In this document: one piece after another, positions 3,617-64,000 of the stretch | Layout of the letters: each line of letters opens with the position of its first letter | How positions within the stretch are numbered: position 1 is the first letter of the stretch | Source of the DNA: Candidatus Zixiibacteriota bacterium | GTDB lineage: Bacteria; Zixibacteria; MSB-5A5; GN15; PGXB01 | Direction: 5' to 3' | DNA: 64,000 nt | NCBI GenBank assembly: GCA_026397505.1 | Contig: JAPLUR010000047.1 | Location: 11,040-75,039 of the forward strand | Made by a program: the position numbers and the translations under genes | Notes under the pieces: model-generated | Told to the model about the DNA's origin: nothing | The model's database searches: none | What the model saw: the letters and a program-made list of their open reading frames with translations, nothing else

Positions 3617-3640
3617 TTGAATCTTATCTCAGGAGGTTTA

Positions 3641-11879: not shown

Positions 11880-11910
11880 GTGTCGAAACCGCAAGGGTTT
11901 CGATCTACCC
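11880..11910. repeat. GTCGAAAC-hairpin-GTTTCGA(C/T)CTA element, copy 1
   Basis: tGTCGAAACCgcaagGGTTTCGATCTAcc. Confidence 0.7.
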
Positions 11911-12895: not shown

Positions 12896-13347
12896 GATTT
12901 CCTCCTTCATAATAAATAATGATTAAATCTCTTGGCAATATCTAATTGCCATATTTCATTTTTATATTTTCCCATTCTCTCCTTTCCTATGGCGGGTCAA
13001 GGCAATTGATCGGACAGATGCCCCATCTCTCGATTTGAACACCGCCCGCCTTTCGGCGGGCGGCTTCCCTGTCAACCCGAATGGAGGTGAGTCCTCTTAC
13101 CCTGCTCAGGCCGGAGGCACAGAAATGGTTTTGTTCTTTCAGATGCCGAGAGCAGGCTGGAGCCTTGGCCTTAAGCGCTGAACAGCCCGCCCCGGCTATC
13201 CTCAATGGTCCGCCAAATTGGGCTCATGACAGACCAGCAATGCTCATATCAAAAGCGATGCCAACCGAAAGCAGGCACGTCGATATCGCGATAATATGTT
13301 GAACAATAAAGAATTAGGTTGGTATGTTTGAAGAGAGGGCTATTCCT

Positions 13348-13410
13348 GAGCCAGGATGCCTGCGTAGTCTACGCAGGCATCCTGGCTCGCGCTGCGCAGA
13401 CTACGCATCC
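13348..13410. repeat. palindromic repeat element, copy A (GAGCCAGGATGCCTGCGTAGTCTACGCAGGCATCCTGGCTC + TGCGCAGACTACGCATC)
   Basis: Perfect 19-bp-arm inverted repeat around GTC, followed by a second TGCG.AG.CTACGCA palindrome. Confidence 0.85.
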
Positions 13411-13545
13411 AAGTTATTCCGAGGCTTGATAATGTATTCGCTGCTGGATAATTACAGATATGACACGATGAGCTGCCCCACCGGCACAATTAGAGAAGCC
13501 ATTTGACCAGCGTTAGCCCGACACCAATAAGCACGCCACCAGCCG

Positions 13546-14676: not shown

Positions 14677-15636
14677 TTACAATATTTTCACTAAAACACA
14701 TACGACCACACCTATTGAACATCCGACACATACTATGTTGGAAAAACCGCCAAATGGGCATTTGAGCACTATACACTCGTAAACCATGTGACAAATGAGT
14801 TCCCATGGGATTTCTGTTTCCGGGTACATGGTTTCGCCATGAGGCATTTCAAGCCTGTGTTCGGTATAAATGCGGGAAGCCAATTCCTTGCTCTTAATCA
14901 AATCAATTACCAGTTGGGCATCAGAGTTATTGTACAGTGAATTTGATGTGTCGTTAAATTGGTTAAATTCCTCAATGGTCCCGATAATTTCAAGGTCTTG
15001 AGCAGCATATTTGGCCAGGTTGCGCTCATTGTAGCGCTCATATGAATATACCTGGTCCCTCAATGATGCAATTCTGCTCACATCATCAGTGGGAAATGCA
15101 AATGCCCTGCGCATGCCGTTTAATGTGTAAGTTTCAGTGAAGAGATGCGGCTCTCTTTTCTGTTCGATAACCAGTTCATCAGATTCGGTTTTCTCCGTCA
15201 CCCAGAAATGCGTGCTGTCGCTGCGATCAAATTCGCACCCTAAGGCCCATTTAAGATGCTCGCGCTCGTCAATCAAGGTGGCACGCCAGCATCGATAGGT
15301 CGTAGGAGTGGCATAAGCCTCAATAATCAATTTGCGATTTTGAGGAGACTGGGTGTTCTCATATGCCATTATATTAAAAGTGGCTTTATTAGCTGCAGTG
15401 TCAATATTATAGGACAATATATCCACTTTTCCGACCGACAAACTGACGGTGAGCAACGGCGGTTTCTCGCAATCAATTTGTTGCTGCTCTCCGATCGCTT
15501 TCATTTGCGTGGCCGAGGTGGCGTTTTTACCACCATCTTTTTCCGTGATCGGCGTTTCATTACAGCCGGTAAGCAATTGCATCATAATGCAAATACTCAA
15601 TGCGGCGATACAAACCATAGTGGATTTGAGCTTCAT
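14677..15636 (-). CDS. lipoprotein with Cys-rich hydrophobic C-terminal tail, hypothetical
   Basis: GGAGG RBS 7 nt before the ATG at 15636. Lipobox LLTGC. C-terminus ICHMVYECIVLKCPFGGFSNIVCVGCSIGVVVCVLVKIL. Confidence 0.6.
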   Translation of the reverse strand: MKLKSTMVCIAALSICIMMQLLTGCNETPITEKDGGKNATSATQMKAIGEQQQIDCEKPPLLTVSLSVGKVDILSYNIDTAANKATFNIMAYENTQSPQNRKLIIEAYATPTTYRCWRATLIDEREHLKWALGCEFDRSDSTHFWVTEKTESDELVIEQKREPHLFTETYTLNGMRRAFAFPTDDVSRIASLRDQVYSYERYNERNLAKYAAQDLEIIGTIEEFNQFNDTSNSLYNNSDAQLVIDLIKSKELASRIYTEHRLEMPHGETMYPETEIPWELICHMVYECIVLKCPFGGFSNIVCVGCSIGVVVCVLVKIL

Positions 15637-15794
15637 GGCAATTCCTCCTTTGTTTAGAGCCATTTCCCGAATTATGCCTAAGCCAAATCCGTACCAAGTT
15701 TGGAAGACTATGCCGCCACATTCATAACTCCAATATTGTCATGATGTTAATTATACAAGTCATAGCATTGACTTTAGAACAGCTAAGTTGCACT

Positions 15795-15843
15795 TGCGTA
15801 GTCTACGCAGGCATCCTGGCTCACAGTGCGTAGTCTACGCATC
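15795..15843. repeat. palindromic repeat element, copy B (TGCGTAGTCTACGCAGGCATCCTGGCTC-N6-TGCGTAGTCTACGCATC), direct repeat of copy A
   Basis: Same 28-mer plus second palindrome, in the same orientation as copy A, about 2.4 kb away. Overlaps the 3' end of the sigma-54 regulator gene. Confidence 0.85.
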
Positions 15844-17985
15844 GGAATCATTGCCGATATCGTATTTTCGCATTTGATAGCGCACCCCACCCTCAGTAAG
15901 GCCCAGCCGGCGGGCCGCCTCGCGCTGATTCCAATCCGATTCCTGAAGTGTCTTAAGCAGTTTCTCCCTGTCAGTCTGATTCCCTTCAGACAAAAACTCA
16001 AGCATCCTGCTTATATCCCCACTGCAGGTCAGGCAGAGACGCCGAACCTCTACCCGCAACTCCCGCACATTCCCCGACCAGGGGCGGGTCTGAAGAATGC
16101 TACAGATTTCCTTAAAAGCATCATGATTCCCATCAGACGTAGGATCAAAGCCGCCTTCGGCAAGAAAATGAGAGATTAGAGCCGGGATGTCGTCGCTGCG
16201 CTCCGACAGCGGCGGAAGTGAAATCGGTATCTCATTCAGACGGTGATAGAGATCGGCCCGAAACCGGCCGCTGCGAATTGCCTCCTCCAGGTTTTGATTG
16301 GTCGCTGCGATCACCCGAATATTCAGTTTGGTCGGCTGCGTGCTCCCCAGCCGACGAACCTCTCTGGTCTCCAAAACCTCCAGAAGTTTCGCCTGAAACT
16401 GCGGCGTCGTATCGGCAATCTCATTCAAATAAAAAGTGCCGCCTTCGGCCGTTTCAAACAAACCCGGCTTATCCTGTGGAGCCCCAGTGAATGCCCCTTT
16501 CCGATACCCAAACAACTCCGATTCAACCATCCCCTCCGGTATCGCCGCCGCATTCACCGAAACGAATTTGCCCGCCCGCCCCGAACAAAAGTGGATATAT
16601 TTGGCCAACTGGTCTTTCCCCGTACCGGTCGGCCCGGTCAACAAAACTGTCATCTCTGAGGCGGCAATATTCTCGGCCAACGCCCGGATTTTCCGAGTCG
16701 TGGGATGTTCCGCCACAAAAACAGGACACGCCCCGCCGGAGGGACGAGGAGCGGGGCGTGCGGGTGTTACCGTCAACACGGCATTAACTTTCTCTATGTA
16801 CGGCCGGATATCTTCCGACTCAAAATATTCTTTCGCCAGATAAAGGAGGGCCGCCTTCTCGCCATTGCCATACAATCCGGAGACAGCCGCCAGGTAGCGG
16901 GTGGCCGCCAGTTCATACCGGCTGCTTATTTGAGCGAAAAGGTCAATTGCTTTTTTGAACCATTCTTTGGCTTTATCTTTTTCCCCTCTTTGAAGGGCAG
17001 TCTGAGCGAACACCCGCCAACAAGCGGCAATTTCGGCCCGCTCGTTGATCTTCTCGGCGACAATTAATGCTTCCTCGGCATATTTCTGGGCCAAATCGTA
17101 CCTCTTCAGGCCGAGATAAGCATCAGCCAGAAGCCGTTTGGTTTGGGAGATAAGGGCCGACTCGGGGGCGATTTTAAGCGAGAGTTCCAGCCCTGATAGA
17201 AGCGCCTTCTCCGCCTCATTGAATTCCCCCGCAAGGATATGTATCCAGCCGAGGAATTCATAATACTGCGCCTTTTCACGCTTTAGATCGCCGGACAATT
17301 GTGTCGTCTCAGCTATGAGCTGCTTTGCTGGCCCAATATCACCAACGTGGGCCATGACTAGGGCACAGCGCAATTTATGACGATAGGTGAAATCTGCTGT
17401 AGGATTGTGCATATGTGCTGCTGTGCAATTGAATAGTGAAAGTGCGCTTTGCAGTTGGCCCGAAATAAAATATACCATAGCAAGATTATGGGTCAGACTT
17501 TTAACTTTTTCCTGGTCATTTGACTGCTGATATAGGTCAATGCATTGCTTGAGAAGATTGATAGAAGCGTCAATTTCGCCGGATAAACCTGCAATAAATG
17601 CTAAACGATTTAGTGAGGCTGCAGCGCCTCCGACATCATCGCATCGTTTATAGCTTCCGTACGATTCGAGAAAACATTCGCGCGCTTCGGCATGATTTCC
17701 CATCGCGACGTAGACCCTGCCGAGCAGGAATTTGGCTTTGGCGTATCTATCGGTCCGAATACTATACCTGTAATGCCGGATGGCGCTATTGATGATGGGG
17801 AGAAGATCATAATCGCCAAGTTGAAGACCTATCTCGGTCTTCAAAATGCAATAATGGGCATAGTCGTCAGGCAACATTGACTTAGCATTGAACTTGGTCA
17901 ATTCTAAAGAAGCTGCTCCGAAATTCCTGTCTTTCAGGAATTGCTCAATTGCGGAGAATAGAGATATGTATGTCTCTTGTTTCAT
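15835..17985 (-). CDS. sigma-54-dependent transcriptional activator (bacterial enhancer-binding protein) with N-terminal TPR repeats and C-terminal Fis-type HTH; no receiver domain
   Basis: AAA+ sigma54-interaction domain (GPTGTGKDQLAKYIH, GAFTGA, GGTFYLNEIAD, RFRADLYHRLN). HTH REAARRLGLTEGGVRYQMRKY. TPR-like N-terminal half. Confidence 0.85.
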   Translation of the reverse strand: MKQETYISLFSAIEQFLKDRNFGAASLELTKFNAKSMLPDDYAHYCILKTEIGLQLGDYDLLPIINSAIRHYRYSIRTDRYAKAKFLLGRVYVAMGNHAEARECFLESYGSYKRCDDVGGAAASLNRLAFIAGLSGEIDASINLLKQCIDLYQQSNDQEKVKSLTHNLAMVYFISGQLQSALSLFNCTAAHMHNPTADFTYRHKLRCALVMAHVGDIGPAKQLIAETTQLSGDLKREKAQYYEFLGWIHILAGEFNEAEKALLSGLELSLKIAPESALISQTKRLLADAYLGLKRYDLAQKYAEEALIVAEKINERAEIAACWRVFAQTALQRGEKDKAKEWFKKAIDLFAQISSRYELAATRYLAAVSGLYGNGEKAALLYLAKEYFESEDIRPYIEKVNAVLTVTPARPAPRPSGGACPVFVAEHPTTRKIRALAENIAASEMTVLLTGPTGTGKDQLAKYIHFCSGRAGKFVSVNAAAIPEGMVESELFGYRKGAFTGAPQDKPGLFETAEGGTFYLNEIADTTPQFQAKLLEVLETREVRRLGSTQPTKLNIRVIAATNQNLEEAIRSGRFRADLYHRLNEIPISLPPLSERSDDIPALISHFLAEGGFDPTSDGNHDAFKEICSILQTRPWSGNVRELRVEVRRLCLTCSGDISRMLEFLSEGNQTDREKLLKTLQESDWNQREAARRLGLTEGGVRYQMRKYDIGNDSDA

Positions 17986-18286
17986 TTCCCGGCGTAATTA
18001 CCTTCCAGTAGGAAGGAAAAATAAAGGTTTGATTCGTTATGGCCCTGATAATGTTGATGATTGTATGGCCTTCGTCGCCATTATTTCCGTTATAAATATT
18101 GGGCGCTATTCTGCAAGGAGAAGTGGAGTGAGACAGCAAAACATCTTCCCACGGATAATCCCACAAAATCGGATTGTTAATGGGCTGCACATTTCTTATT
18201 CTATTGCCGCCATCAGCTAGAACAGGTGGGGAAAACAAAATCCATATCACCGCCCCCAGCAGCAAAGCAAACATTATCTTTTTCAT
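17945..18286 (-). CDS. small secreted protein (113 aa), paralog of 18332..18712
   Basis: Signal peptide MKKIMFALLLGAVIWILFSPPVLADGGNRIRNV is about 90% identical to the neighbour's N-terminus. The 5' leader is also conserved. Confidence 0.6.
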   Translation of the reverse strand: MKKIMFALLLGAVIWILFSPPVLADGGNRIRNVQPINNPILWDYPWEDVLLSHSTSPCRIAPNIYNGNNGDEGHTIINIIRAITNQTFIFPSYWKVITPGNETRDIHISILRN

Positions 18287-18331
18287 AACTTTCGCCTCTT
18301 CCTAAAGGTTTATTAAGGCCACTAAACCTCA

Positions 18332-18712
18332 TCACCGGCGGCCCAAATCGCCGGCATTTATATCTGTGTCGAAACTCCCGACCAAGGGGTCGGGACAGGC
18401 GCAGGGGTTTCGACCTATCTTAATCAACGAAAAATCAAATCTTATAGAGAAATATATATAAAGCATATTGCCTATAATGTTTCTCGGGGGAGTAGTCACG
18501 CGGTCCTGCGTAGCAATCCTTATGTTTGACAACGCGATGTCAGATAGTGATGGTGACGCACCATCCAATTCCTGCCACGGGTGTTCTTCAAGAGTAGGAT
18601 CATGGATTGATATCACATTTCTTATTCTATTACCCCCATCAGCAAGAATGGGTGGGGAAAACAACATCCATATCACAGTCCCCAGCAGTAATGCAAACAT
18701 TATCTTTTTCAT
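18332..18712 (-). CDS. small secreted protein, diverged paralog of 17945..18286
   Basis: Start set at MKKIMFALLLGTVIWMLFSPPILADGGNRIRNV, with a GAGGTG RBS. The ORF track's longer start (18748) lacks an RBS. Confidence 0.6.
   Translation of the reverse strand: MKKIMFALLLGTVIWMLFSPPILADGGNRIRNVISIHDPTLEEHPWQELDGASPSLSDIALSNIRIATQDRVTTPPRNIIGNMLYIYFSIRFDFSLIKIGRNPCACPDPLVGSFDTDINAGDLGRR
18366..18428. repeat. GTCGAAAC...GTTTCGACCTA element, copy 2 (in the 5' leader of small secreted protein gene A)
   Basis: tGTCGAAACtcccgaccaaggggtcgggacaggcgcaggGGTTTCGACCTAt with an inner hairpin TCCCGACC/GGTCGGGA. Confidence 0.7.
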
Positions 18713-18790
18713 AATCATCACCTCATTCAAAAGGTTTATCTTGGCCACTAAACCTCATCACCGGCAATCCAATCCACCGGCATTTATTCT

Positions 18791-18828
18791 CTGTCGAAAC
18801 CGCCTACCGCCAGCGGGGTTCGACCTAT
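18791..18828. repeat. GTCGAAAC...GGTTCGACCTA element, copy 3 (in the 5' leader of small secreted protein gene B)
   Basis: tGTCGAAACCgcctaccgccagcGGGGTTCGACCTAtt. Confidence 0.7.
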
Positions 18829-19034
18829 TGCGCTTCAACATCGCGGGAGGGCCGGGCCAAAAATGCTGAGTCTGAAAACCAGTGTCGCTGATTGCAGGGT
18901 AAGGTTGTTGCCACCGGCATTCTCCCATTCGGATTTCTTAGCCTATCTCTATAACTAAGATGATTTTTATTAAGAATTTGTCAAGCAAAAAATCACCTTA
19001 AGTGCCTGTCCAGCTTAAAATATAGCCTTTACCC

Positions 19035-19051: not shown

Positions 19052-19164
19052 TTGAACTTGGAATTAATCGGCTTTTAAAATCGCGCTTTACTTTTGGGCG
19101 GGTTCCGGCGTATCTTGGGGCGGAGTATTAAAGCAAATAGCCTTTTAAACCAAAGGTGTCAAAT

Positions 19165-21141
19165 ATGAGACCACAGAATTTAATTGAAAAAATAGCGCAA
19201 CGTTTCGCGGTCGGCCTCGACCAGGGACATCCGGTGCAGACAGGCGATTATCTTTCCATCCGCCCGGCCTATTGCATGACCCATGACAACACCGGTGCGG
19301 TTATCCCCAAATTCGAATCGATTGGAGCGACCAGAATTGCCGACCCGCGCCAGTTGGTTTTCGCGCTCGACCACAATGTGCAGGATACGAGTGAAGAGAA
19401 TCTGAAAAAATACGCCAAGATTGAAGCGTTCGCCAAGGAACACGGCATAGATTTTTATCCCGCCGGCCGAGGGATTGGACATCAGATAATATGCGAAGAG
19501 GGTTACGCCTGGCCGGGGACACTGGTGGTTGCCTCCGACAGCCATTCCAACATGTACGGCGGGCTGGGATGTCTCGGAACGCCGATCGTTCGCACCGATG
19601 CCGCCTCTATCTGGGCCACTCGGCGTACCTGGTGGCAGGTTCCGCCGGTAGCTAAAGTGGAATTGATCGGACAGCTTCCGGTGGGGGTGACCGGAAAAGA
19701 TGTCATTATCACCCTGTGCGGTCTCTATCATAACGATGAGGTCTTGAATCATGCTCTCGAATTCACCGGTGATGGGTTGGCTTACCTTTCCGTAGAACAG
19801 CGTCTTACGATTGCCAATATGACGACCGAGTGGGGCGCACTCGCGGGTGTCTTCCCTATCGATGAAGTTACATACGATTATCTCAACAAGCGGGTCGAAT
19901 ATGTCGCCAAGCGAGGACCGGCCGGGGTAGTATCGGATGAGGACGGCGATGGCGCGCATCCGCGGCTCAACGCCCCCCGGATTGCGGCTCTTCGGCGCGA
20001 TCATACGAAGGCCGATCCCGGAGCTTTTTACGCCAAAGAGCTGACTCTGGATTTATCCATGGTACAGCCTTTTGTCGCGGGACCCAACACCGTCAAAGTG
20101 ATAACGGCGGTCAGCGATATTCGGAAAAAGAATGTTAAGATAAACAAGGCCTATCTAGTTTCCTGTGTCAACAGCCGCACCGAGGATATTTCCGAGGCGG
20201 CGGCCATGGTGCGGGGCAAAAAAGTGGCCGAAGGGGTGGAGTTCTACATTTCGGCCGCCTCGAGTGAAGTTCAGGCGGAAGCCGAGAAGCGGGGCGATTG
20301 GCAGGCGCTCATTAAAGCGGGCGCCATTCCACTTCCCTCCGGTTGCGGCCCCTGTATAGGTTTAGGGAAAGGGATTTTGCAGGATAACGAAGTTGGCATC
20401 TCGGCCACCAACCGCAATTTCAAGGGGCGGATGGGTTCCAGCAGCGCCCAGGCTTATCTGGCCTCTCCGGCGGTGGTCGCCGCCTCGGCCATAGCAGGCA
20501 AAATCGACTTTCCGGGCGATTATCGTTCCAAATTTCCCAAAGGTCAAATACGCAGCGCCCGAAGAGCGGCCGCCGGAACCAGCGAAGTGCAGATAATTGA
20601 AGGATTCCAGGAGACAATCGAAGGGGAACTCATTTTCTGTCATCAGGACAATCTCAATACCGACGGTATTTTCCCCGGCAAGTATACTTATATGGATGAT
20701 TTTACGCCCGAGCAGCAGGCCTCGGTGGTAATGGAAAACTACGACCCGGAATTCGGGAAAATGGTGGAGAAAGGGGATATCCTGGTCGGCGGATTCAATT
20801 TCGGAACCGGCAGTTCCCGCGAACAAGCCGCCACGGCACTGAAATATCGCGGCCTGAGTCTGGTGCTGGCCGGCTCTTTCTCTGAGACTTTCAAACGCAA
20901 TGCACTCAATAACGGGTATCTGGTAATTGAGGCGCCGGAACTGATCGACGACCTGAAAGAGCGACTGGGAACCAAGAGCCTGACAGTCCGCACCGGCATC
21001 GAAGCCATGGTTGATTTCCGCCACTCAGTGGTTCAGGCCGACGGTAAGAGATACCGCATAAGCCCGATGGGAGGGGCCGCTCAGGAACTGGTTATAGCCG
21101 GCGGGCTGGAAAACTGGGTCAGGGCAAAACTCGAACGATAA
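19165..21141 (+). CDS. aconitase-superfamily hydro-lyase, fused large+small subunit (3-isopropylmalate dehydratase/homoaconitase-like)
   Basis: Motifs GIGHQIICEEG, ASDSHSNMYGGLG, SCVNSRTEDI, GCGPCIGLG, NRNFKGRMG. A C-terminal LeuD-like swivel domain follows. Confidence 0.8.
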   Translation: MRPQNLIEKIAQRFAVGLDQGHPVQTGDYLSIRPAYCMTHDNTGAVIPKFESIGATRIADPRQLVFALDHNVQDTSEENLKKYAKIEAFAKEHGIDFYPAGRGIGHQIICEEGYAWPGTLVVASDSHSNMYGGLGCLGTPIVRTDAASIWATRRTWWQVPPVAKVELIGQLPVGVTGKDVIITLCGLYHNDEVLNHALEFTGDGLAYLSVEQRLTIANMTTEWGALAGVFPIDEVTYDYLNKRVEYVAKRGPAGVVSDEDGDGAHPRLNAPRIAALRRDHTKADPGAFYAKELTLDLSMVQPFVAGPNTVKVITAVSDIRKKNVKINKAYLVSCVNSRTEDISEAAAMVRGKKVAEGVEFYISAASSEVQAEAEKRGDWQALIKAGAIPLPSGCGPCIGLGKGILQDNEVGISATNRNFKGRMGSSSAQAYLASPAVVAASAIAGKIDFPGDYRSKFPKGQIRSARRAAAGTSEVQIIEGFQETIEGELIFCHQDNLNTDGIFPGKYTYMDDFTPEQQASVVMENYDPEFGKMVEKGDILVGGFNFGTGSSREQAATALKYRGLSLVLAGSFSETFKRNALNNGYLVIEAPELIDDLKERLGTKSLTVRTGIEAMVDFRHSVVQADGKRYRISPMGGAAQELVIAGGLENWVRAKLER

Positions 21142-36608: not shown

Positions 36609-36620
36609 GCTAGCCCGGAA

Positions 36621-36677
36621 ATGTCGAAACCCGCGCTCATTCCGCATTCTGCGGAATTCGGGGGAATTTCGACCTAC
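36621..36677. repeat. GTCGAAAC...TTTCGACCTA element, copy 4 (after the SPFH gene)
   Basis: aTGTCGAAACCcgcgctcATTCCGCattcTGCGGAATtcgggggaaTTTCGACCTAca with an inner ATTCCGC/GCGGAAT hairpin. Confidence 0.7.
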
Positions 36678-36720
36678 ACCTGTATGTGCGACAATGAGAT
36701 AGGCGATATTCGCTCTATGG

Positions 36721-37120: not shown

Positions 37121-39316
37121 CTATTTTAGAAGCAGCATTTTGCGGGTCTCAGAAAATTCACCCGCTACAATTCTATAAAGATAGATGCCTGTTGAGACCG
37201 ACTGACCGTCCTTGCTTCGACCGTTCCAAACAACTTGATAAGTACCGGGCGAAAACTCATGGTCAACCAATCTGGCTATTTCGGCACCCAGCAGGTTATA
37301 AACTGCAACGGTGACATGAGATCTTTGGGGAACAGCGAATCCAATTGTTGTGGCCGGGTTGAACGGATTTGGATGGTTCTGAAACAGTGCGAAATCCTCA
37401 GGCAATTTGCCGGTGTATATATCAGATATGTCTGTGTAGGTGTTCGGGCCCGACCAGCCACTGGGGCCACAAGCGTTGAAGGATCTAACACGCCACCACA
37501 AATCGCCGCCTGGCACAGTGAGTTGTACGCTGCAAGAGCTGATAGTTGTGTCCTTCCACAAGTGCAGAAAGCTTGAAGCACTAGTATCTATCTGGAGACT
37601 GTAACCAGAGGCTTGTGAGACACACTGCCAGATGAACGATAAGACGACAGGACCGTGTGCGCCACTGCTTGGAATCATGCTTCCGGGATTCGGATTTGCC
37701 GGAATCGTGATGATCGTCACGCAAATCTGGTTGCTGAGGTTGCTTGCCCCACAGCTGTTTTTCGCCAGAACATAGTAGCAGTAAGATCCCCCTGAGGCCT
37801 TAGTATAGCATCGCTGCGTTACGTTACCAATGTCCGTCCAGCCGCCACCATTCTCCTGAATCTCGTAACTGGTCGCACCCGCAACCGCACCCCACGATAT
37901 ACAATACTGAACATTCGTACACCCGGACGCAGGCCCCGTAATGAACGGTGGCAGAGGAACAGGATCCACCGTCACGCAATGCTGGTTACTGGAATTACTT
38001 TGTCCACAGCTGTTTTTCGCCCGAACATAGTAGCAATAAGATCCCCCTGAGGCCTTAGTATAGCATCGCTGCGTTACGTTACCAATGTCCGTCCAGCCTC
38101 CACCATTCTCCTGAATCTCGTAACTGGTCGCACCCGCAACCGCACCCCACGATATACAATACTGAACATTCGTACACCCGGACGCAGGCCCCGTGATGAC
38201 CGGCGGAATAGGAGGGGGCAAGGGGGAACAACATGACTGCGACGATTTGCTGGAATTGTAGTAACAGCCGTATTGAGCATCAACCTGATAGCAGTGCGAC
38301 CCGCCGGAGTAGTCATTGTATGGCGGACTGAATGTACCTAAGGTTCCGCCGTCCCGGTAGAGGGTATAGCCAGTCGCTCCGGTGACCGTATTCCAATTAA
38401 TGCTCACATAACCACATTGCGGAGTACAACTGACTATGGGAACATCTTTTGTATATTCCGCAACATACGTGGCTCCCTGACTCGCAGAGATATCGATCCA
38501 CTGGTCCATGGTAAGGAGGTTACAGACATCCCACCAACCTAGAAACGTCCTTCCCAAGGCGGGGTTTGAAGCTGCTATCCTGACCGATGCACCTTGGCTA
38601 TAGCGAAAAGTGGCAGGTGTGTAACCGCCGGATTTTCCATCAGCGTCGGATGGAGTTACGAAGACGTACACGCCATTCTCTGGTACACTGATTACACTAA
38701 AAGTAACATTTTGGGGAGGAGTAGTCACCACAACCAATGTCTCTGGGAATGATGACGATTGCCTTGATCTCAACTCGGCGATGCCCGTGGTATATTCGGT
38801 TATCGGTCTAATCTCGAAGCCATTGTTGCTTTGGCTACCAGTTACCCAGTTCTTGATGTCATAGAAGTTTGGCGCGTCGACTTGTATGTCGCTCCATCCC
38901 GGTAAAAGCGTTGACTGGCCGAGTACTACGGAAGCGCTAGGCTGATTATTCCAGGTTATGGTATATTCGTCCCACGCAGCCGAGACCAAGAGAATATAGG
39001 ATGACTGGTTGGGATTCGACCCTGCATTGTAAATCTTCAATCTGGCATCTGTTATATATGGTGCTTCTCCTGAAGGAATTACTGACAGATCGAATTTTAA
39101 GAACGATCGCAGCCGACCATTATTGACATCGTAGCCCACAAGAAGGGCGATACCACCACCATCATTGGTATTGGGGTATTTGATGGAAACATCGGCGTCA
39201 GCGACCGACAAAAGCCTGTAAGTTGTCGCGTGCACCTGCATTGTCAATCCAGGCAAAAACAGGAAACTTACAAGAACCAAGAGACCAATTTTGGTCGAAC
39301 GTGAACAACATTGCAT
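37121..39316 (-). CDS. secreted FN3-like repeat protein with T9SS C-terminal sorting domain
   Basis: GGAG RBS before the ATG at 39316. Signal peptide. Two near-identical 85-aa repeats. C-terminus FQNHPNPFNPATTIGFAVP...GIYLYRIVAGEFSETRKMLLLK. Confidence 0.8.
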   Translation of the reverse strand: MQCCSRSTKIGLLVLVSFLFLPGLTMQVHATTYRLLSVADADVSIKYPNTNDGGGIALLVGYDVNNGRLRSFLKFDLSVIPSGEAPYITDARLKIYNAGSNPNQSSYILLVSAAWDEYTITWNNQPSASVVLGQSTLLPGWSDIQVDAPNFYDIKNWVTGSQSNNGFEIRPITEYTTGIAELRSRQSSSFPETLVVVTTPPQNVTFSVISVPENGVYVFVTPSDADGKSGGYTPATFRYSQGASVRIAASNPALGRTFLGWWDVCNLLTMDQWIDISASQGATYVAEYTKDVPIVSCTPQCGYVSINWNTVTGATGYTLYRDGGTLGTFSPPYNDYSGGSHCYQVDAQYGCYYNSSKSSQSCCSPLPPPIPPVITGPASGCTNVQYCISWGAVAGATSYEIQENGGGWTDIGNVTQRCYTKASGGSYCYYVRAKNSCGQSNSSNQHCVTVDPVPLPPFITGPASGCTNVQYCISWGAVAGATSYEIQENGGGWTDIGNVTQRCYTKASGGSYCYYVLAKNSCGASNLSNQICVTIITIPANPNPGSMIPSSGAHGPVVLSFIWQCVSQASGYSLQIDTSASSFLHLWKDTTISSCSVQLTVPGGDLWWRVRSFNACGPSGWSGPNTYTDISDIYTGKLPEDFALFQNHPNPFNPATTIGFAVPQRSHVTVAVYNLLGAEIARLVDHEFSPGTYQVVWNGRSKDGQSVSTGIYLYRIVAGEFSETRKMLLLK
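37750..38195 (-). repeat. near-identical about 255-bp tandem duplication inside T9SS cargo gene (two 85-aa FN3-like modules)
   Basis: About 190-nt blocks from 37750 and from 38003 are identical except a handful of substitutions. Confidence 0.85.
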
Positions 39317-39660
39317 TTGACTCTCCTTTCCAACGTGCTCCAAACCATGACACGTTACCTTATGCCAATGACATTCCGATATTAGGTTCGTAGACGCCAT
39401 ATATACCGTTCAGCATTGGGCTATTCTGTTAACAGATTGTGAGATGTTATCTACAAGTCAGGCTTAAAGACCCCGAGATCGGAAACGGATTCATCTTGCA
39501 GTTTCATCCCGGTTCGTTTAAACATATCCTCTGAACTGTCTAAGTTAGGCCGCGCTTTGCCTAATGTCAAGCGCTTTTCGATATAATTCTCTCCTTATCC
39601 TGAGTGTTTCTGTCTTGATTCGCTCCCGTTGCTCCAGGATTTAGGTTGATCAGTATGAAT

Positions 39661-39716
39661 CGTCGAAACCCCCGCTCATTCCGCCTGCGGCGGAATTCGG
39701 AGGGCATTTCGGACCG
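39661..39716. repeat. GTCGAAAC...TTTCGGACC element, copy 5 (between the T9SS cargo gene start and prfB)
   Basis: cGTCGAAACCcccgctcATTCCGCctgcgGCGGAATtcggagggcaTTTCGGACC. Same inner hairpin as copy 4. Confidence 0.65.
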
Positions 39717-39870
39717 CCCCTGAAATAAACCAAATTTAGTCCTCGATTGTTGGCGCCCGGTGGATTTTTCTCATAATTTGGATATTTCTTGGAGAAAATT
39801 TAATCATTTTAACATTTGACTTTTGGGGGGAAAGGGGTATATATTACATATCTTATTGAAGGATTTGAGA

Positions 39871-59351: not shown

Positions 59352-62300
59352 ATGTCAACCAAACCAGAAGAAAAAGCGACGAGGAGGGCCGGTGATTCCA
59401 TGACCAAAACGAGAAGAATGGTCACGATTGACGGGAATACCGCGGCCGCCTATGTAGCTCATGCCTTGAGTGAAGTAATCGCCATATATCCTATCACACC
59501 TTCATCCAATATGGGTGAAATCGCCGACGCCAAATCGGCGGACGGCGAGACCAACATCTGGGGGACAATTCCCAATGTGGTCGAAATGCAGTCGGAAGGG
59601 GGCGCCTCCGGCGCGGTTCATGGAGCCGCCACGGCCGGGGCGCTGACCACCACCTTCACCGCTTCGCAGGGACTCCTGTTGATGATTCCCAATATGTTCA
59701 AGATTTCGGGCGAAATGACGCCGACGGTGTTTCATGTATCGGCCCGTTCGGTGGCCACTCACGCCCTCTCTATTTTCGGCGACCACTCCGATGTCATGGC
59801 GACTCGTTCGACCGGTTTCGGCCTTATTGCCTCAGGATCGGTGCAGGAAGTGATGGATCTGGCGCTAATCACTCACGCCGCGTCGTTGGAGAGCCGGGTG
59901 CCGTTTGTTCATTTCTTCGATGGGTTCCGTACCTCGCATGAGGAGCAGAAAGTTGAGCAGTTTGATTTTGAGGATATCCGCGCCATGATCAGTGAAGAGG
60001 CAATTGCGGCGCACCGCGCCCGTTCCCTCAGCCCCGACCATCCGACGCTGAAGGGATCTTCACAGAACCCGGATGTTTTTTTCCAGGCGCGAGAGACGGT
60101 CAATAAATATTATTTGAAGGCTCCCGAGATTATCCAGCAAGTAATGGACCGGTTCGCGAAAGTTGTCGGGCGTCAGTACCGGCTGTTTGATTATTTCGGC
60201 GCCCCGGATGCCGACCGGATTGTAATTATGATGGCCTCGGGCGCGGAAACGATGCATGAGACGATTGATTATCTCAACGCCCATGGCGAAAAAGTGGGGT
60301 TGATAAAAATCCGGTTGTATCGTCCTTTCTCCATCGAAGCGCTGCTTAAAGCGATTCCCAAAACGGTCAAAAAGATCGCCGTGCTTGACCGCACCAAAGA
60401 GCCGGGTGCGGTGGGCGAACCGCTCTATGTCGACATACAATCGGTTGTCGGCGAGGGGATGAAAAACGGGCTGGCCCCGTTCAGTGAATATCCGCTGATT
60501 GTCGGCGGGCGGTATGGTTTAAGCTCCAAGGAGTTCACTCCGGCCATGGCCAGGGCGGTTCTGGATAATATCAAAATCGGCCAGCCGAAGAATCATTTTA
60601 CGGTCGGTATTGTCGATGATGTCACCTATACCAGTCTTGAGGTTGACAATTCTTTCAGTGTCGAAGGGGATGATGTTTTCCGCGGGCTGTTTTACGGCCT
60701 GGGCGCGGACGGCACGGTCGGCGCCAACAAAAATTCCATCAAGATTATCGGTGAAAACACGAACAACTATGCTCAGGGTTATTTTGTTTACGACTCCAAG
60801 AAAGCCGGCGCGGTCACGGTATCGCACCTGCGTTTCGGCAAGAAAATTATCCGCAGCCCCTATCTGATCGATTCGGCCAAGTTCGTGGCCTGCCACAATT
60901 TCTCTTTCCTCGAACGGTATGATATGCTTTCGCCGCTCGTTAAGGGAGGCACTTTCCTGCTTACCTGCCCCTACGGCCCCGAGGAAGTATGGGACAAGCT
61001 GCCCATGGAAGTGCAGAAACAGATAATCGACAAAAAAGCCAGGTTCTATGTGATTGATGCGATCAAACTGGGCAAAGAGCTCGGCCTGGGGGCGCGAATC
61101 AACATGATCATGCAGACCGCTTTCTTTTCCATCAGCGGCATTCTGCCCAAGGATGAAGCGATCATGGCTATCAAGGATGCTCTGAAAAAGACCTATGGCC
61201 ACAAAGGCGACAAAGTGGTGCAGATGAATTATGCCTCGGTCGATGCCGCGGTCAGCAATATTCACCAGGTGCAGTATCCCGACCGGGTCACCAGCAAGAT
61301 CAAGATGCCGCCGCTGGTTCCCGAAAACGCTCCCGAATTTGTCCGGTACGTAACGGCGACAATTATCTCGGGCAAAGGCGATACGCTTCCGGTTTCGGCG
61401 ATGCCCGATGACGGGACATTCATGACCGGCACGACACAGTATGAGAAGAGAAATATTGCGGTCGAAATTCCGGTCTGGGATGAACAGCTCTGCATTCAGT
61501 GCGGTATCTGTTCCATTGTTTGCCCGCATGCCTCAATCAGAATGAAAATTTATGATTCCAAGCTGCTGGCGAAGGCGCCGGAGACTTTCAAGGCGGTCGA
61601 TGCCAAAACCAAACAGTATGAAGGGCTGAAATATACGCTTCAGGTGGCACCAGAGGATTGCACCGGCTGCGAGGTCTGTGTCAACGCCTGCCCGGTTTAC
61701 GGCAAGGACGACAAGGGGAACAAGACCGACCACAAGGCGATCAACATGGCGGTGCAGCTTCCCCTGCGCGAGAAGGAAGCCAAGAACTGGGAATTTTTCC
61801 TTTCGCTGCCGGAGACCGACCCTTCGCTTTTCAATCCCGAGACGGTCAAAGGAAGTCAACTGGTCAGGCCGTTATTCGAATTTTCGGGCGCCTGCGCCGG
61901 GTGCGGCGAGACGCCATATATCAAGCTGGTCAGCCAGTTGTTCGGTGATCGGGCTTTGATCGGAAACGCCACCGGCTGCTCATCGATTTATGGCGGAAAT
62001 CTTCCCACGACACCATATACCAAGCGTGCCGACGGGCGCGGGCCGGCCTGGTCCAACTCCCTTTTTGAGGACAATGCCGAATTCGGATTCGGGATGCGTC
62101 TGGCGGTCGACAAGATGAAAGAGCATGCTTTGGAATTGACCGCCAAGCTCTGCCCCGAGGAGTACGAGGCAATCAAGAACGCCGACCAGTCGATTCAGGC
62201 CGGGATTGAACTTCAGAGAGAGCGGATCGTGAAGCTGAAAATGAAACTGCAGAAAATGCGCGGCGAAGAAGCCAAGAAGCTTTTGACCATTGCCGATTAT

Positions 62301-62975
62301 CTGGTGAGAAAATCGGTCTGGGCTTTCGGCGGTGACGGCTGGGCGTATGATATCGGGTTCGGCGGACTCGATCATGTGCTGGCCTCGGGAAGAGATGTCA
62401 ATGTCCTGGTGCTCGATACCGAGGTTTATTCCAACACCGGCGGACAGATGTCCAAATCATCGCCGATGGGAGCGGTCGCCAAGTTTGCGGCCGCCGGCAA
62501 GCCGATTCCCAAGAAGGATTTGGGAATGATCATGATGGCTTACGGGAGTGTTTATGTCGCGCAGATTGCCATCGGAGCGAGCCAGAATCAGACGGTTAAG
62601 GCGATAGTGGAGGCCGAGCGGTATAACGGACCCTCCATCATCATCGCTTACAGCCATTGTATTGCACATGGCATAGACATGTCGCACGGTCTGGATGAAC
62701 ATAAGAAGGCGGTTGATTCCGGTCACTGGATTCTCTATCGTTTCAACCCGGAGCTGATTGCGCAGGGGAAGAACCCTCTTCAACTGGACAGCAAGCCGCC
62801 GTCGATAAGTTATGCCGACTATGCCTATGGCGAGGTTCGTTTCCGGACTCTTAAAGCCAGCATGCCGGAGCGTTCCGACAAATTGATTCGGATGGCTCAG
62901 GAGGATGCGGTGAGGAGATATAATCTCTACAAGCAGATGGCCGCCATGGATTATAGTTTTATGATCAAGAAATAG
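59352..62975 (+). CDS. nifJ: pyruvate:ferredoxin (flavodoxin) oxidoreductase, single-polypeptide PFOR
   Basis: About 1207 aa. Two 4Fe-4S motifs CIQCGICSIVCP and CTGCEVCVNACP. TPP-binding region GDGWAYDIGFGGLDH. Confidence 0.9.
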   Translation: MSTKPEEKATRRAGDSMTKTRRMVTIDGNTAAAYVAHALSEVIAIYPITPSSNMGEIADAKSADGETNIWGTIPNVVEMQSEGGASGAVHGAATAGALTTTFTASQGLLLMIPNMFKISGEMTPTVFHVSARSVATHALSIFGDHSDVMATRSTGFGLIASGSVQEVMDLALITHAASLESRVPFVHFFDGFRTSHEEQKVEQFDFEDIRAMISEEAIAAHRARSLSPDHPTLKGSSQNPDVFFQARETVNKYYLKAPEIIQQVMDRFAKVVGRQYRLFDYFGAPDADRIVIMMASGAETMHETIDYLNAHGEKVGLIKIRLYRPFSIEALLKAIPKTVKKIAVLDRTKEPGAVGEPLYVDIQSVVGEGMKNGLAPFSEYPLIVGGRYGLSSKEFTPAMARAVLDNIKIGQPKNHFTVGIVDDVTYTSLEVDNSFSVEGDDVFRGLFYGLGADGTVGANKNSIKIIGENTNNYAQGYFVYDSKKAGAVTVSHLRFGKKIIRSPYLIDSAKFVACHNFSFLERYDMLSPLVKGGTFLLTCPYGPEEVWDKLPMEVQKQIIDKKARFYVIDAIKLGKELGLGARINMIMQTAFFSISGILPKDEAIMAIKDALKKTYGHKGDKVVQMNYASVDAAVSNIHQVQYPDRVTSKIKMPPLVPENAPEFVRYVTATIISGKGDTLPVSAMPDDGTFMTGTTQYEKRNIAVEIPVWDEQLCIQCGICSIVCPHASIRMKIYDSKLLAKAPETFKAVDAKTKQYEGLKYTLQVAPEDCTGCEVCVNACPVYGKDDKGNKTDHKAINMAVQLPLREKEAKNWEFFLSLPETDPSLFNPETVKGSQLVRPLFEFSGACAGCGETPYIKLVSQLFGDRALIGNATGCSSIYGGNLPTTPYTKRADGRGPAWSNSLFEDNAEFGFGMRLAVDKMKEHALELTAKLCPEEYEAIKNADQSIQAGIELQRERIVKLKMKLQKMRGEEAKKLLTIADYLVRKSVWAFGGDGWAYDIGFGGLDHVLASGRDVNVLVLDTEVYSNTGGQMSKSSPMGAVAKFAAAGKPIPKKDLGMIMMAYGSVYVAQIAIGASQNQTVKAIVEAERYNGPSIIIAYSHCIAHGIDMSHGLDEHKKAVDSGHWILYRFNPELIAQGKNPLQLDSKPPSISYADYAYGEVRFRTLKASMPERSDKLIRMAQEDAVRRYNLYKQMAAMDYSFMIKK

Positions 62976-62999
62976 TCCGAGGCGGCCGGCTAAATCAAG

Positions 63000-63030
63000 G
63001 GCAGGATGGTTGTTCCTGCCCTTTTCTATT
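63000..63030 (+). terminator. rho-independent terminator after PFOR gene
   Basis: Stem GGCAGGA-TGGTTGT-TCCTGCC followed by CTTTTCTATTT. Confidence 0.65.
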
Positions 63031-63031
63031 T

Positions 63032-63255
63032 GCTGTTGCGTCAGGTCCTAGATTCCGCCTTAGCGGAAGCGAGACCTGACGCCTCCGTAGGATATTCTAT
63101 GTTGCTGTTGCGTCAGGTCCTAGATTCCGCGCCAGCGGAAGCGAGACCTGACGCGACAGAGGTGGGGCAAGAAAATATTGACTAACAGGGAAATATTCGC
63201 TGTTGCGTCAGGTCCTAGATTTCGCGCCAGCGGAAGCGAGACCTGACGCAACAGA
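63032..63255. repeat. array of three 52-nt hairpin repeats (GCTGTTGCGTCAGGTCCTAGATTCCGCGCCAGCGGAAGCGAGACCTGACGC) with irregular 18-44 nt spacers
   Basis: Copies at 63032-63082, 63104-63154 and 63199-63255. Each has a 10-15 bp outer stem and an inner TTCCGC/GCGGAA hairpin. Confidence 0.8.
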
Positions 63256-63326
63256 GAATCGCATCAAAATTAAATTGACTATTCGGTCAATTTTGATGAT
63301 ACTGTTGACCTTAGGGTAAGAGCAAA

Positions 63327-64000
63327 ATGAATTCGCTTGAATACTATTATCATCAAATCAGAATCTGGCTGATCTTACATAAATATAAAGTGACTGCCGG
63401 GATCATTTTGGCGGTTATCAGCATATTAATAAGCTCTTTTGGGTGGTTGTGTCCACGACCGGCGGAGTTGTCAAAGCAAGATCAGGAAAAGATTGATCAA
63501 ATTCCGCAATTGGAGCAGCGCACTGCCGAAATCGCCGAATCCGTGAAGAAACTGGAGAATGCGCTTGGCCAAAAGCCTTATTTGGATGGCCTTACCCAGT
63601 CGCCGCCACCGGTCTTCAATCCTTTCAAGAAAGGGCTTGATTTGATGGCTCAATCCAAATGGGATGAGGCCATTGTCGAGTTTAAGATATCAATGAAAGA
63701 GGCCAAAGGAAGCCAGCTCGTCGCCCTGTACAATCTCATCGGAATATGTTACGACACCCCCGGCAAACTCGATTCCGCGCTCTCATCTTACAATAAATCC
63801 CTGGAGCTGGCGCGGCAATTTGCAGACAGAATGGGGGAAGCGAATGCTCTGGGGAACATCGGGAATATCTATTATGCTAAGGGGGACTTAGATGCGGCGC
63901 TGAAATATCAGCAAGAGGCTTTAAAAATAGATAGGGAGATAGGTTATAAGCAGGGTGAAGCGTCGGACTTGGGGAACATCGGACTGATCTATAAGGCTAA
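63327..64000 (+). CDS. TPR-repeat protein with N-terminal TM anchor (3'-partial, continues beyond window)
   Basis: The open frame has no stop before the window end. TPR-like repeats ANALGNIGNIYYAKGDLDAALKYQQEAL and EASDLGNIGLIYKA. Confidence 0.65.
   Translation, partial: MNSLEYYYHQIRIWLILHKYKVTAGIILAVISILISSFGWLCPRPAELSKQDQEKIDQIPQLEQRTAEIAESVKKLENALGQKPYLDGLTQSPPPVFNPFKKGLDLMAQSKWDEAIVEFKISMKEAKGSQLVALYNLIGICYDTPGKLDSALSSYNKSLELARQFADRMGEANALGNIGNIYYAKGDLDAALKYQQEALKIDREIGYKQGEASDLGNIGLIYKA

What the first reader, a model, noticed from the sequence alone, without database searches (positions are those of the whole stretch)
63032..63255. Three tandem 52-nt double-hairpin repeats between the PFOR gene terminator and a TPR gene
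The repeats lie immediately after a canonical terminator (63000-63030). Each has a 10-15 bp GC-rich outer stem (GCGTCAGGTC/GACCTGACGC) enclosing a TTCCGC-NNNN-GCGGAA inner hairpin. Spacers are 18-44 nt. A further AT-rich imperfect palindrome follows at 63257-63295. The inner hairpin motif is shared with GTCGAAAC-family copies 4 and 5, which suggests a common binding protein. This could be a BIME/REP-like cluster, an attenuator, or a recombination hotspot.
Basis: seen in the sequence. Interest (0 to 1): 0.5.

Follow-up and report, generated by a model that had tools for sequence, protein, structure and literature searches.

The report
Three REP transposon-relic hairpins
The three repeated hairpins after the PFOR gene are REP elements, small non-coding palindromes that a dedicated tyrosine transposase (RAYT) copies around the genome; this is a known kind of element, but this REP family is undescribed in the sources I searched and occurs across Zixibacteria, LCP-89, Calditrichota and Ignavibacteria.

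Summary
Three direct copies of a 58-nt unit (86-97% identical) lie at 63032-63256, between the PFOR terminator and a TPR gene. Each copy is one two-part hairpin, not two hairpins.

A scan of 185,579 species genomes found the same hairpin in many MAGs labelled Zixibacteria, LCP-89, Calditrichaeota and Ignavibacteria. It occurs several times per genome and mostly between genes, in either orientation relative to them.

The family consensus is strand-asymmetric: NNGTCAGGTC-ACA-[variable, covarying inner hairpin]-CAR-GACCTGACNN-AAC. The window copies carry this on the minus strand.

In six related loci a 160-aa gene lies between two of these hairpins in inverted orientation. The two products scanned score above the curated cut-off of NCBIfam "REP-associated tyrosine transposase". 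The one searched against PDB matched only E. coli TnpA-REP.

The repeats are therefore REPs, arranged here as a head-to-tail BIME-like cluster. They are atypical in having a GTT/AAC tag instead of GTAG and a two-part stem.

The attenuator option and the idea of a binding protein shared with the GTCGAAAC repeats are not.

No RAYT gene lies in the window, so activity in this genome is inferred. This is a new member of a known kind, of modest interest.

The parts
63030..63090 (-). REP copy 1. Hairpin core 63038-63082. Minus strand reads GCGTCAGGTC-TCGC-TTCCGC-TAAG-GCGGAA-TCTAG-GACCTGACGC-AAC. It starts about 10 nt after the PFOR terminator stem.
   Evidence: Covariance model R1 scores 52.1 bits on the minus strand. 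Repeat family D1. DNA fold -18 kcal/mol, z = -5.0.
63102..63162 (-). REP copy 2. Hairpin core 63110-63154; the outer stem extends to 15 bp with one mismatch (63105-63119 / 63145-63159).
   Evidence: R1 scores 50.2 bits on the minus strand. (-19.6 kcal/mol, z = -6.1).
63195..63259 (-). REP copy 3. Hairpin core 63205-63249. It has a 20-bp outer stem with GTT on one side and AAC on the other ('double foot'), and one mismatch in the inner stem (TTTCGC/GCGGAA).
   Evidence: R1 scores 47.7 bits on the minus strand and 35.8 bits on the plus strand. Inverted repeat I1, 20 nt, 95% complementary. (-22.3 kcal/mol).
62997..63033 (+). Context: intrinsic terminator of the PFOR gene (10-bp stem, then TTCTATTTGC). 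It lies immediately upstream of REP copy 1.
   Evidence: Terminator scan; fold.
59352..62975 (+). Context: pyruvate:ferredoxin/flavodoxin oxidoreductase gene (1207 aa).
   Evidence: Pfam POR_N, POR, EKR, PFOR_II, TPP_enzyme_C and Fer4 domains.
63327..64000 (+). Context: start of a TPR-repeat protein gene that runs off the window. A promoter-like site lies at 63275-63303.
   Evidence: Pfam TPR_12, TPR_1 and TPR_2; frame check; promoter scan.

Best explanation
The three units are REP elements (repetitive extragenic palindromes). These are non-autonomous single-strand DNA hairpins that belong to a REP/RAYT system found in FCB-group bacteria.

Each unit has four parts:
- a conserved outer stem (NNGTCAGGTC/GACCTGACNN);
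- a small conserved internal loop (ACA/CAR in most genomes, TCGC/TCTAG in the window subtype);
- a free-to-vary inner hairpin;
- an unpaired AAC at the 3' foot, which reads GTT at the 5' foot of the other strand.

In relatives, a single 160-aa HUH/Y1 tyrosine transposase gene (RAYT) sits between two such hairpins in inverted orientation, with the GTT/AAC tags pointing outward. This is the REPtron layout.

By analogy with E. coli TnpA-REP, the RAYT would bind the folded hairpin on one DNA strand. It would read the internal loop and the tag, then cut and rejoin beside it, which spreads copies into intergenic DNA.

The window holds a head-to-tail cluster of three such copies. They lie in the gap between the PFOR terminator and the promoter-like site upstream of the TPR gene.

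Shown here: the hairpin and its covariation, dispersal in related genomes, and the REP-RAYT adjacency.

Inferred: catalysis at the tag, presence of a cognate RAYT in this organism, and any side effect on mRNA 3' ends.
For: 1. The repeats are real and not chance.

Of the 126 exact hits counted (123 in those loci plus the 3 window copies), 86 carry AAC at the 3' side or GTT at the 5' side. Nearly all the tagged loci are MAGs labelled Zixibacteria, LCP-89, Calditrichaeota or Ignavibacteria or are unclassified; exceptions are three Nocardioides loci and one Desulfobacteraceae-labelled MAG. Some genomes have many copies: CAVTJJ01 at least 12 loci, NJBN01 at least 12 loci.

3. Covariance model R1 finds 125 members in 87 sources (86 loci plus the window). 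About 40 of these are diverged copies that the pattern could not have selected. The diverged copies show compensatory changes in the outer stem, for example GTGTCAGG/CCTGACAC, CCGTC/GACGG, CAGTTC/GAACTG and GTCGGGTC/GACCCGAC.

4. Pair counts on the 125-member alignment: 91.7% of cells paired, 11 of 16 pairs changed on both sides, and 0 of 500 shuffles reach the observed score.

5. Members are mostly intergenic, with no fixed orientation relative to neighbours: 40 between co-directional genes, 15 convergent, 9 divergent. They form direct clusters (9) and tight inverted doublets (6).

6. RAYT genes lie in L068, L091, L019, L047, L061 and L122. Each is bracketed within 4-48 nt by the hairpins, inverted upstream and canonical downstream, wherever the sequence is available.

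7. The two RAYT proteins tested hit NCBIfam NF047646 'REP-associated tyrosine transposase' at 101.6 and 96.1 bits (cut-off 80) and Pfam Y1_Tnp. The only PDB match is 4ER8, E. coli TnpA-REP. The HUH and YIHxNP motifs are invariant in the alignment.

8. L122 carries a RAYT next to a REP of the window's own TCGC/TCTAG subtype.

9. The window's proteins are closest to Zixibacteria and LCP-89 loci among those held: 68.7% identity in one case, 64.6% with conserved gene order in another.

10. The units are 86-97% identical while the spacers between them do not align, which fits inserted elements.
Against: No RAYT gene lies in the 64-kb window, and the rest of this genome is not available. Mobilisation in this organism is therefore inferred.

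Only one locus with three copies occurs in 64 kb.

The canonical REP hallmark, an unpaired 5' GT[AG]G, is absent. The tag is GTT/AAC.

Head-to-tail arrays are reported as rare for GTAG and CGTC REP families (PMC3733652).

Seed sequences were chosen with an exact outer stem and oriented by AAC. Conservation figures for those positions are therefore inflated. The independent support comes from the diverged copies.

MAG taxonomic labels come from record titles and were not checked.
Confidence: 0.88

Rival explanations
1. The hairpins are primarily functional RNA. They would be 3'-UTR stabilisers, back-up terminators or an attenuator acting on PFOR read-through or on the TPR gene.
For: The plus-strand transcript would fold very stably: -152 kcal/mol for 321 nt, z = -11. 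The covariation fits an RNA as well as a DNA hairpin. About a quarter of family members (32 of 125) have an A-rich 5' flank, which is a T-rich tail on the other strand and so terminator-like. REPs in E. coli are reported to stabilise mRNA (background in PMC6006769).
Against: Family members lie in both orientations relative to flanking genes. The window copies have no T tract and follow a complete intrinsic terminator. No Rfam family matches. The RAYT bracketing points to a DNA-level element. An RNA role could only be secondary.
Confidence: 0.06
2. The repeats are a local array of binding sites (operators) for a regulator of the TPR gene, or for a protein shared with the GTCGAAAC repeats through the TTCCGC/GCGGAA inner hairpin.
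For: The exact TTCCGC-N(3-9)-GCGGAA motif occurs four times in the window against 0.08 expected. The array lies upstream of the TPR gene.
Against: The four occurrences belong to only two independent repeat lineages. The inner hairpin is the least conserved part of the family. The same element occurs next to unrelated genes in dozens of genomes. The promoter-like site lies downstream of the array.
Confidence: 0.03
3. The repeats are a degenerate CRISPR-like mini-array, integron attC sites, or a MITE with terminal inverted repeats moved by a DDE transposase.
For: Repeat-spacer appearance; GTT and AAC triplets at the feet resemble attC core sites; the stems are inverted repeats.
Against: The unit is 58 nt, the spacers are 14 and 37 nt, and the family is mostly singletons. 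In attC the order is RYYYAAC...GTTRRRY; here it is GTT...AAC, and usually only one tag is present. The only recurrent neighbouring gene noticed and then searched for across the loci is a Y1 tyrosine transposase. There is one hit in 2.9 million viral contigs.
Confidence: 0.02

Closest known systems
REP/RAYT systems (REPtrons), e.g. E. coli REP/BIME with TnpA-REP (PDB 4ER8)
   Same: Short imperfect palindromes, many dispersed intergenic copies, and clusters. A single small HUH/Y1 transposase gene is bracketed by inverted copies. The RAYT here scores above the curated cut-off of the NCBIfam REP-associated tyrosine transposase model and matches 4ER8.
   Different: The tag is GTT/AAC rather than an unpaired 5' GTAG. 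The hairpin is two-part (10-bp outer stem, internal loop, 5-8-bp variable inner stem) and 43-51 nt long. The window cluster is head-to-tail rather than alternating.
TnpA-REP subclass 2.6 (Bertels group 5) of Quentin et al. 2018 (PMC6006769), mostly in Bacteroidetes, flanked by 'atypical secondary structures' without GT[AG]G
   Same: The Y motif YIH[QN]NP is present in four of the six RAYTs (against the table). The host lineage is FCB-group. The flanking hairpins lack GT[AG]G and have further copies in the genome.
   Different: The HUH motif is (S/T)H(L/I)H rather than NH[LIV]H. Proteins are 160 aa against a mean of 179. The CAGGTC/GACCTG hairpin is not among the REPs listed in that paper's supplement. 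Subclass membership was not tested by phylogeny.
REPINs (REP doublets forming hairpins; Bertels and Rainey 2011, PMC3116915)
   Same: Relatives contain tight inverted doublets with the same polarity as the two hairpins around the RAYT gene (6 cases). Copy 3 in the window has a tag on both feet, like a collapsed doublet.
   Different: The window's three copies are in direct orientation, so they are not a REPIN.
CGTC-tagged REP superfamily (Di Nocera et al. 2013, PMC3733652)
   Same: CGTC occurs at the 5' end of the element (GCGTCAGGTC).
   Different: In that superfamily CGTC is unpaired, stems are 8-9 bp, loops 4-5 nt, the tail is CCA, and no transposase is associated. Here CGTC is base-paired and covaries, and a RAYT is associated.

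Membership tests
REP (repetitive extragenic palindrome) | Short imperfect palindrome that folds into a stem-loop | tested here: met
   Covariation across 125 members: 91.7% paired, 0 of 500 shuffles reach the score.
REP (repetitive extragenic palindrome) | Many dispersed, mostly extragenic copies per genome | tested here: inconclusive
   Met in related MAGs: 125 members in 87 sources, up to 4 per 8-kb locus, and at least 12 loci from single genomes. For the window's own genome only 64 kb is available, with one locus of three copies.
REP/RAYT system (REPtron) | RAYT gene flanked by the REPs in inverted orientation | tested here: inconclusive
   Met in six related loci: L068, L091, L019, L047, L061 and L122. 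No RAYT lies in the window, and the rest of this genome is unavailable.
Canonical (GTAG-tagged) REP | Unpaired 5' GT[AG]G tetranucleotide at the foot of the hairpin | tested here: not met
   The conserved unpaired tag is AAC at the 3' foot, which is GTT at the 5' foot on the other strand; 122-124 of 125 members have it.
BIME / REPIN | Neighbouring REPs in alternating (inverted) orientation | tested here: not met
   All three window copies have the same orientation. Inverted doublets do exist in relatives.
CGTC-tagged REP superfamily | Unpaired CGTC tag, 8-9 bp stem, 4-5 nt loop, CCA tail, no transposase | tested here: not met
   CGTC is paired and covaries. The stem is two-part, the tail is AAC, and a RAYT is associated.
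Intrinsic terminator | GC-rich hairpin followed by a T/U run | tested here: not met
   The scan flags only 62997-63023 in the intergenic region; the three hairpins lack a T run.
CRISPR array | Regularly spaced 23-47-nt repeats with unique spacers of similar length, usually with cas genes | tested here: not met
   58-nt units with 14- and 37-nt gaps. The family is mostly singletons. cas genes were not searched for systematically.
Integron attC site | 5' RYYYAAC ... GTTRRRY 3' core sites at the feet of the hairpin | tested here: not met
   The order is reversed (GTT at the 5' side, AAC at the 3' side) and usually only one tag is present.
Any Rfam RNA family | Score at or above the family's gathering threshold | tested here: not met
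   No matches at gathering threshold in the whole window. Only far sub-threshold microRNA-type hits in 62900-63400.

The most novel reading that the evidence does not exclude
This is an old REP-RAYT partnership spanning several FCB phyla. Its DNA recognition core (CAGGTC-ACA...CAR-GACCTG plus AAC) has stayed almost unchanged while the RAYT proteins have diverged to 43-54% identity. REPs are usually described as specific to a species or genus. A core frozen across Zixibacteria, LCP-89, Calditrichota and Ignavibacteria would point either to very long vertical co-inheritance or to a host function for the hairpin-RAYT pair.
Probability: 0.3. Interest if true: 0.5.

Novelty: new member of a known kind. 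Interest (0 to 1): 0.3.

Why it matters
The finding explains a conspicuous repeat as an ordinary class of genomic element, so it needs no special regulatory story for PFOR or the TPR gene.

It has modest wider value. It documents a non-GTAG REP family, with its RAYT, in poorly studied uncultured phyla. The clear consensus and covariance model could be used to annotate these MAGs.

REPs also tend to break short-read assemblies. Here the one Logan contig found for this organism is only 3.3 kb.

If the cross-phylum conservation holds up, the family would be a useful case for studying how long REP-RAYT pairs persist.

Tried and rejected
- **Rfam:** the gathering-threshold search of the whole window gave no hits. 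The E-value search of 62900-63400 gave only weak microRNA-like matches typical of any long hairpin.
- **Literature:** a full-text search for GCGTCAGGTC returned only primer sequences. A search combining REP with Ignavibacteria, Zixibacteria or Calditrichaeota found only an unrelated 18-nt Caldithrix palindrome.
- **Published REP catalogue:** the supplement of Quentin et al. 2018 does not list this hairpin.
- **Source contig:** exact look-ups of PFOR and of an 895-aa protein failed. A third protein gave only a 3.3-kb Logan contig from SRR20698647, so the window could not be extended.
- **Metagenome scan for the window's TCGC/TCTAG subtype:** six contigs were found. None has the window's exact inner stem, but one has a RAYT.
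- **Viral contigs:** one hit only, so the family is not phage-borne.
- **L040:** an ORF bracketed by REP doublets is a weak, below-cut-off DinB_2 match, not a RAYT.
- **Considered and rejected:** attC, CRISPR, terminator, attenuator and operator readings; see the rival explanations and membership tests.
- **First TPR Pfam call:** it failed because the start coordinate was off by one. This was corrected.

Full report
**1. The observation**

The region 63032-63256 holds three direct copies of a 58-nt unit, at 63032-63089, 63104-63161 and 63199-63256. They are 86%, 100% and 97% identical to the reference copy. The 45-nt core occurs three times in the window with at most 3 mismatches, while 100 shuffles gave none.

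Each unit is one two-part hairpin:
- outer stem GCGTCAGGTC/GACCTGACGC, extended to 15-20 bp in copies 2 and 3;
- internal loop CTAGA/GCGA;
- inner stem TTCCGC/GCGGAA with a 4-nt loop.

This is shown. Copy 3 has one inner-stem mismatch.

PFOR occupies 59352-62975 and a TPR gene starts at 63327. An intrinsic terminator lies at 62997-63023 with a T-rich tail, and a promoter-like site at 63275-63303. An AT-rich palindrome lies at 63262-63298.

The sequence between and around the units does not align. The array is therefore not a plain segmental tandem duplication.

**2. The same hairpin elsewhere**

I counted 126 exact hits: 123 in those loci plus the 3 window copies. Of these, 86 have AAC immediately 3' of the hairpin or GTT immediately 5' of it. 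Nearly all the tagged loci are MAGs labelled Zixibacteria, LCP-89, Calditrichaeota, Ignavibacteria/-ales, GN15 or unclassified "bacterium"; the exceptions are three Nocardioides loci and one Desulfobacteraceae-labelled MAG. Single genomes contribute many loci: CAVTJJ01 and NJBN01 give at least 12 each.

The 40 untagged hits are mostly from high-GC Actinomycetota and Proteobacteria. They look like chance palindromes or other elements.

Once oriented, the family consensus is strand-asymmetric: GCGTCAGGTC-ACA-[variable inner hairpin]-CAR-GACCTGACGC-AAC. The window copies carry this orientation on the minus strand, with a TCGC/TCTAG internal loop. That subtype also appears in L047, L104 and L112, and in six metagenome contigs.

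**3. The structure is selected**

A covariance model built from 83 sequences (R1) finds only the three copies in the window, at 48-52 bits on the minus strand. Across the loci held it finds 125 members in 87 sources, meaning 86 loci plus the window. About 40 of these are diverged copies that the exact pattern could not have picked.

The diverged copies show compensatory changes in the outer stem: GTGTCAGG/CCTGACAC, CCGTC/GACGG, CAGTTC/GAACTG and GTCGGGTC/GACCCGAC. They keep CAGGTC-ACA...CAR-GACCTG and the AAC.

On the 125-member alignment, 91.7% of cells are paired and 11 of 16 pairs change on both sides. No shuffle out of 500 reaches the observed covariation score, and slid registers collapse to 23-41% paired. 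All six inner-stem pairs vary on both sides.

One caveat applies. The seeds were chosen with an exact outer stem and oriented by AAC, so conservation of those positions is overstated. The diverged copies are the independent evidence.

**4. Behaviour in genomes**

Members are mostly intergenic. The 15 "inside ORF" cases mostly overlap short ORFs of about 100-170 aa, likely spurious; three lie in ORFs of 390-468 aa.

Members have no fixed orientation relative to neighbouring genes: 40 lie between co-directional genes (24 antisense, 16 sense), 15 between convergent genes and 9 between divergent genes. This argues against a cis-regulatory RNA as the primary identity.

Pairs within 300 nt are direct in 9 cases (two of these pairs are in the window), tight inverted doublets with their 5' ends facing in 6 cases, and the opposite inverted type in 1 case.

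A looser pattern found only one hit in 2.9 million viral contigs.

**5. The associated gene**

Between two inverted hairpins in L068 and L091 lies a 160-aa ORF. Both products hit NCBIfam NF047646 "REP-associated tyrosine transposase", an equivalog model, at 101.6 and 96.1 bits against a cut-off of 80. Both also hit Pfam Y1_Tnp above its cut-off. The only PDB match is 4ER8, E. coli TnpA-REP.

tblastn finds further copies in L019, L047, L061 (cut by the locus edge) and the metagenome contig L122.

The layout is the same wherever both flanks are held (four loci; L061 and L122 show one flank each). On the coding strand it reads GTT-[inverted hairpin], then the RAYT gene, then [canonical hairpin]-AAC, with gaps of 4-48 nt. 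This is the REPtron arrangement described for RAYTs (PMC6006769).

By my rough estimate, six RAYT genes in about 0.7 Mb of DNA selected only for the hairpin is far more than one gene per genome would give, and every one abuts the hairpin.

The six proteins are 43-54% identical. H60 and H62 (the HUH motif), W98, RYDR and Y119 in YIHxNP are invariant.

**6. Conclusion on identity and mechanism**

The three units are REP elements of a RAYT-associated family. In the window they form a head-to-tail, BIME-like cluster next to the PFOR terminator.

The proposed mechanism rests on E. coli TnpA-REP, which binds the folded REP, reads the tag at its foot, and cleaves and rejoins single-stranded DNA (PMC6006769 background; PMC3479197 abstract). 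By analogy, the FCB RAYT would recognise the outer stem, the conserved internal loop and the GTT/AAC tag on one strand. This step is inferred and was not tested.

The window contains no RAYT and the rest of the genome is unavailable.

The window comes from an FCB-group organism. One protein is 68.7% identical to a Zixibacteria locus. Three adjacent genes match an LCP-89 locus in the same order, at 51-65% identity.

A secondary effect on mRNA 3' ends is possible. There is no evidence for it here: the copies lack T runs and follow a complete terminator.

**7. Comparison with known families**

The family fails the canonical REP criterion of an unpaired 5' GT[AG]G.

It is also not a CGTC-tagged REP in the sense of Di Nocera et al. 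In that superfamily CGTC is unpaired, stems are 8-9 bp, the tail is CCA and no transposase is associated. Here CGTC is paired and covaries, and a RAYT is present.

The closest published description is TnpA-REP subclass 2.6. It is found mostly in Bacteroidetes, has the Y motif YIH[QN]NP, and is flanked by atypical structures without GT[AG]G. Four of the six RAYTs here fit that Y motif, but their HUH motif differs ((S/T)H(L/I)H). The CAGGTC hairpin is not in that paper's REP table. I did not test subclass membership by phylogeny.

No paper in the library mentions the sequence.

**8.

The TTCCGC...GCGGAA stem is shared with two GTCGAAAC-family copies, at 36640 and 39679. However, those four occurrences represent only two independent repeat lineages. 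The inner hairpin is also the free-to-vary part of this family. A shared binding protein is therefore not supported.

The GTCGAAAC repeats look like a second REP family. They have stems GTCGAAAC...GTTTCGAC followed by CTA(C), which on the other strand reads (G/A)TAG-GTCGAAAC, a canonical tag.

**9. Verdict**

This is a real feature and a correct first guess among the three offered, now explained. It is a new member of a known kind.

The only unusual aspect is that the hairpin core is the same in MAGs labelled as four or five different phyla, while the RAYTs have diverged to about 50% identity. That rests on record titles and six RAYT sequences, so I rate it as a possibility rather than a finding.

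Noticed in passing
window 11882-11910, 18368-18414, 18793-18830, 36618-36680, 39657-39720: The 'GTCGAAAC family' looks like a second REP family. It has an outer stem GTCGAAAC...GTTTCGAC followed by CTA(C), which on the other strand reads (G/A)TAG-GTCGAAAC, a canonical GT[AG]G-type tag. Two copies share the TTCCGC/GCGGAA inner stem with the REPs studied here. The 8-mer matches at 41606 and 43839 look like chance.
   Followed up: partly
window 63262-63298: An AT-rich imperfect palindrome, CATCAAAATT...AATTTTGATG with inner TTGAC/GTCAA, overlaps the -35 hexamer of the promoter-like site at 63275-63303 upstream of the TPR gene. It could be an operator. It is not repeated elsewhere in the window.
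   Followed up: no
window 13347-13418 and 15795-15852: Two copies of a 58-nt palindrome-rich repeat (TGCGTAGTCTACGCAGGCATCCTGGCTC...) with 29-nt arms 97% complementary. They bracket about 2.4 kb that contains a 328-aa ORF (14677-15663). They could be the terminal repeats of an inserted element.
   Followed up: no
window 37715-38213; 18144-18787; 4927-5162: Longer direct repeats: 244 nt twice at 93% identity (inside the 759-aa ORF 37121-39400), 218 nt twice at 78% (next to the GTCGAAAC copies at 18.4-18.8 kb), and 116-120 nt twice at 76-78% in a coding region.
   Followed up: no
L015, L049, L058, L059, L079, L096, L106 (Nocardioides and other Actinomycetota): A different conserved palindrome has the same 10-bp outer stem and often the AAC: GCGTCAGGTC-GGCCGCTCCCCCGC...GAGCGCGCC-GACCTGACGC-AACCCGTCCAGG. 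It recurs in several Nocardioides MAGs, and in two loci it lies inside crude ORF calls. Its relation to the FCB family is unknown.
   Followed up: no
L040 2924-4025: A 256-aa ORF (3127-3897) with a weak, below-cut-off DinB_2 match is bracketed on both sides by inverted REP doublets, at 2924(-)/2987(+) and 3905(-)/3968(+).
   Followed up: partly
L124 (Ga0073934_10288239, 1056 nt): Identical REP copies with identical flanks lie at both ends of this short metagenome contig (22-61 and 927-966). This could be a circular or tandem assembly artefact, or a 905-nt unit bounded by REPs.
   Followed up: no
window 18144-18800 versus L102 4752-4810: The 661-aa gene at 19156-21141 has a 68.7% identical homologue in Zixibacteria locus L102. 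In L102 a REP of the family studied here lies about 760 nt upstream of that gene. In the window the corresponding upstream region carries GTCGAAAC-type repeats instead.
   Followed up: no
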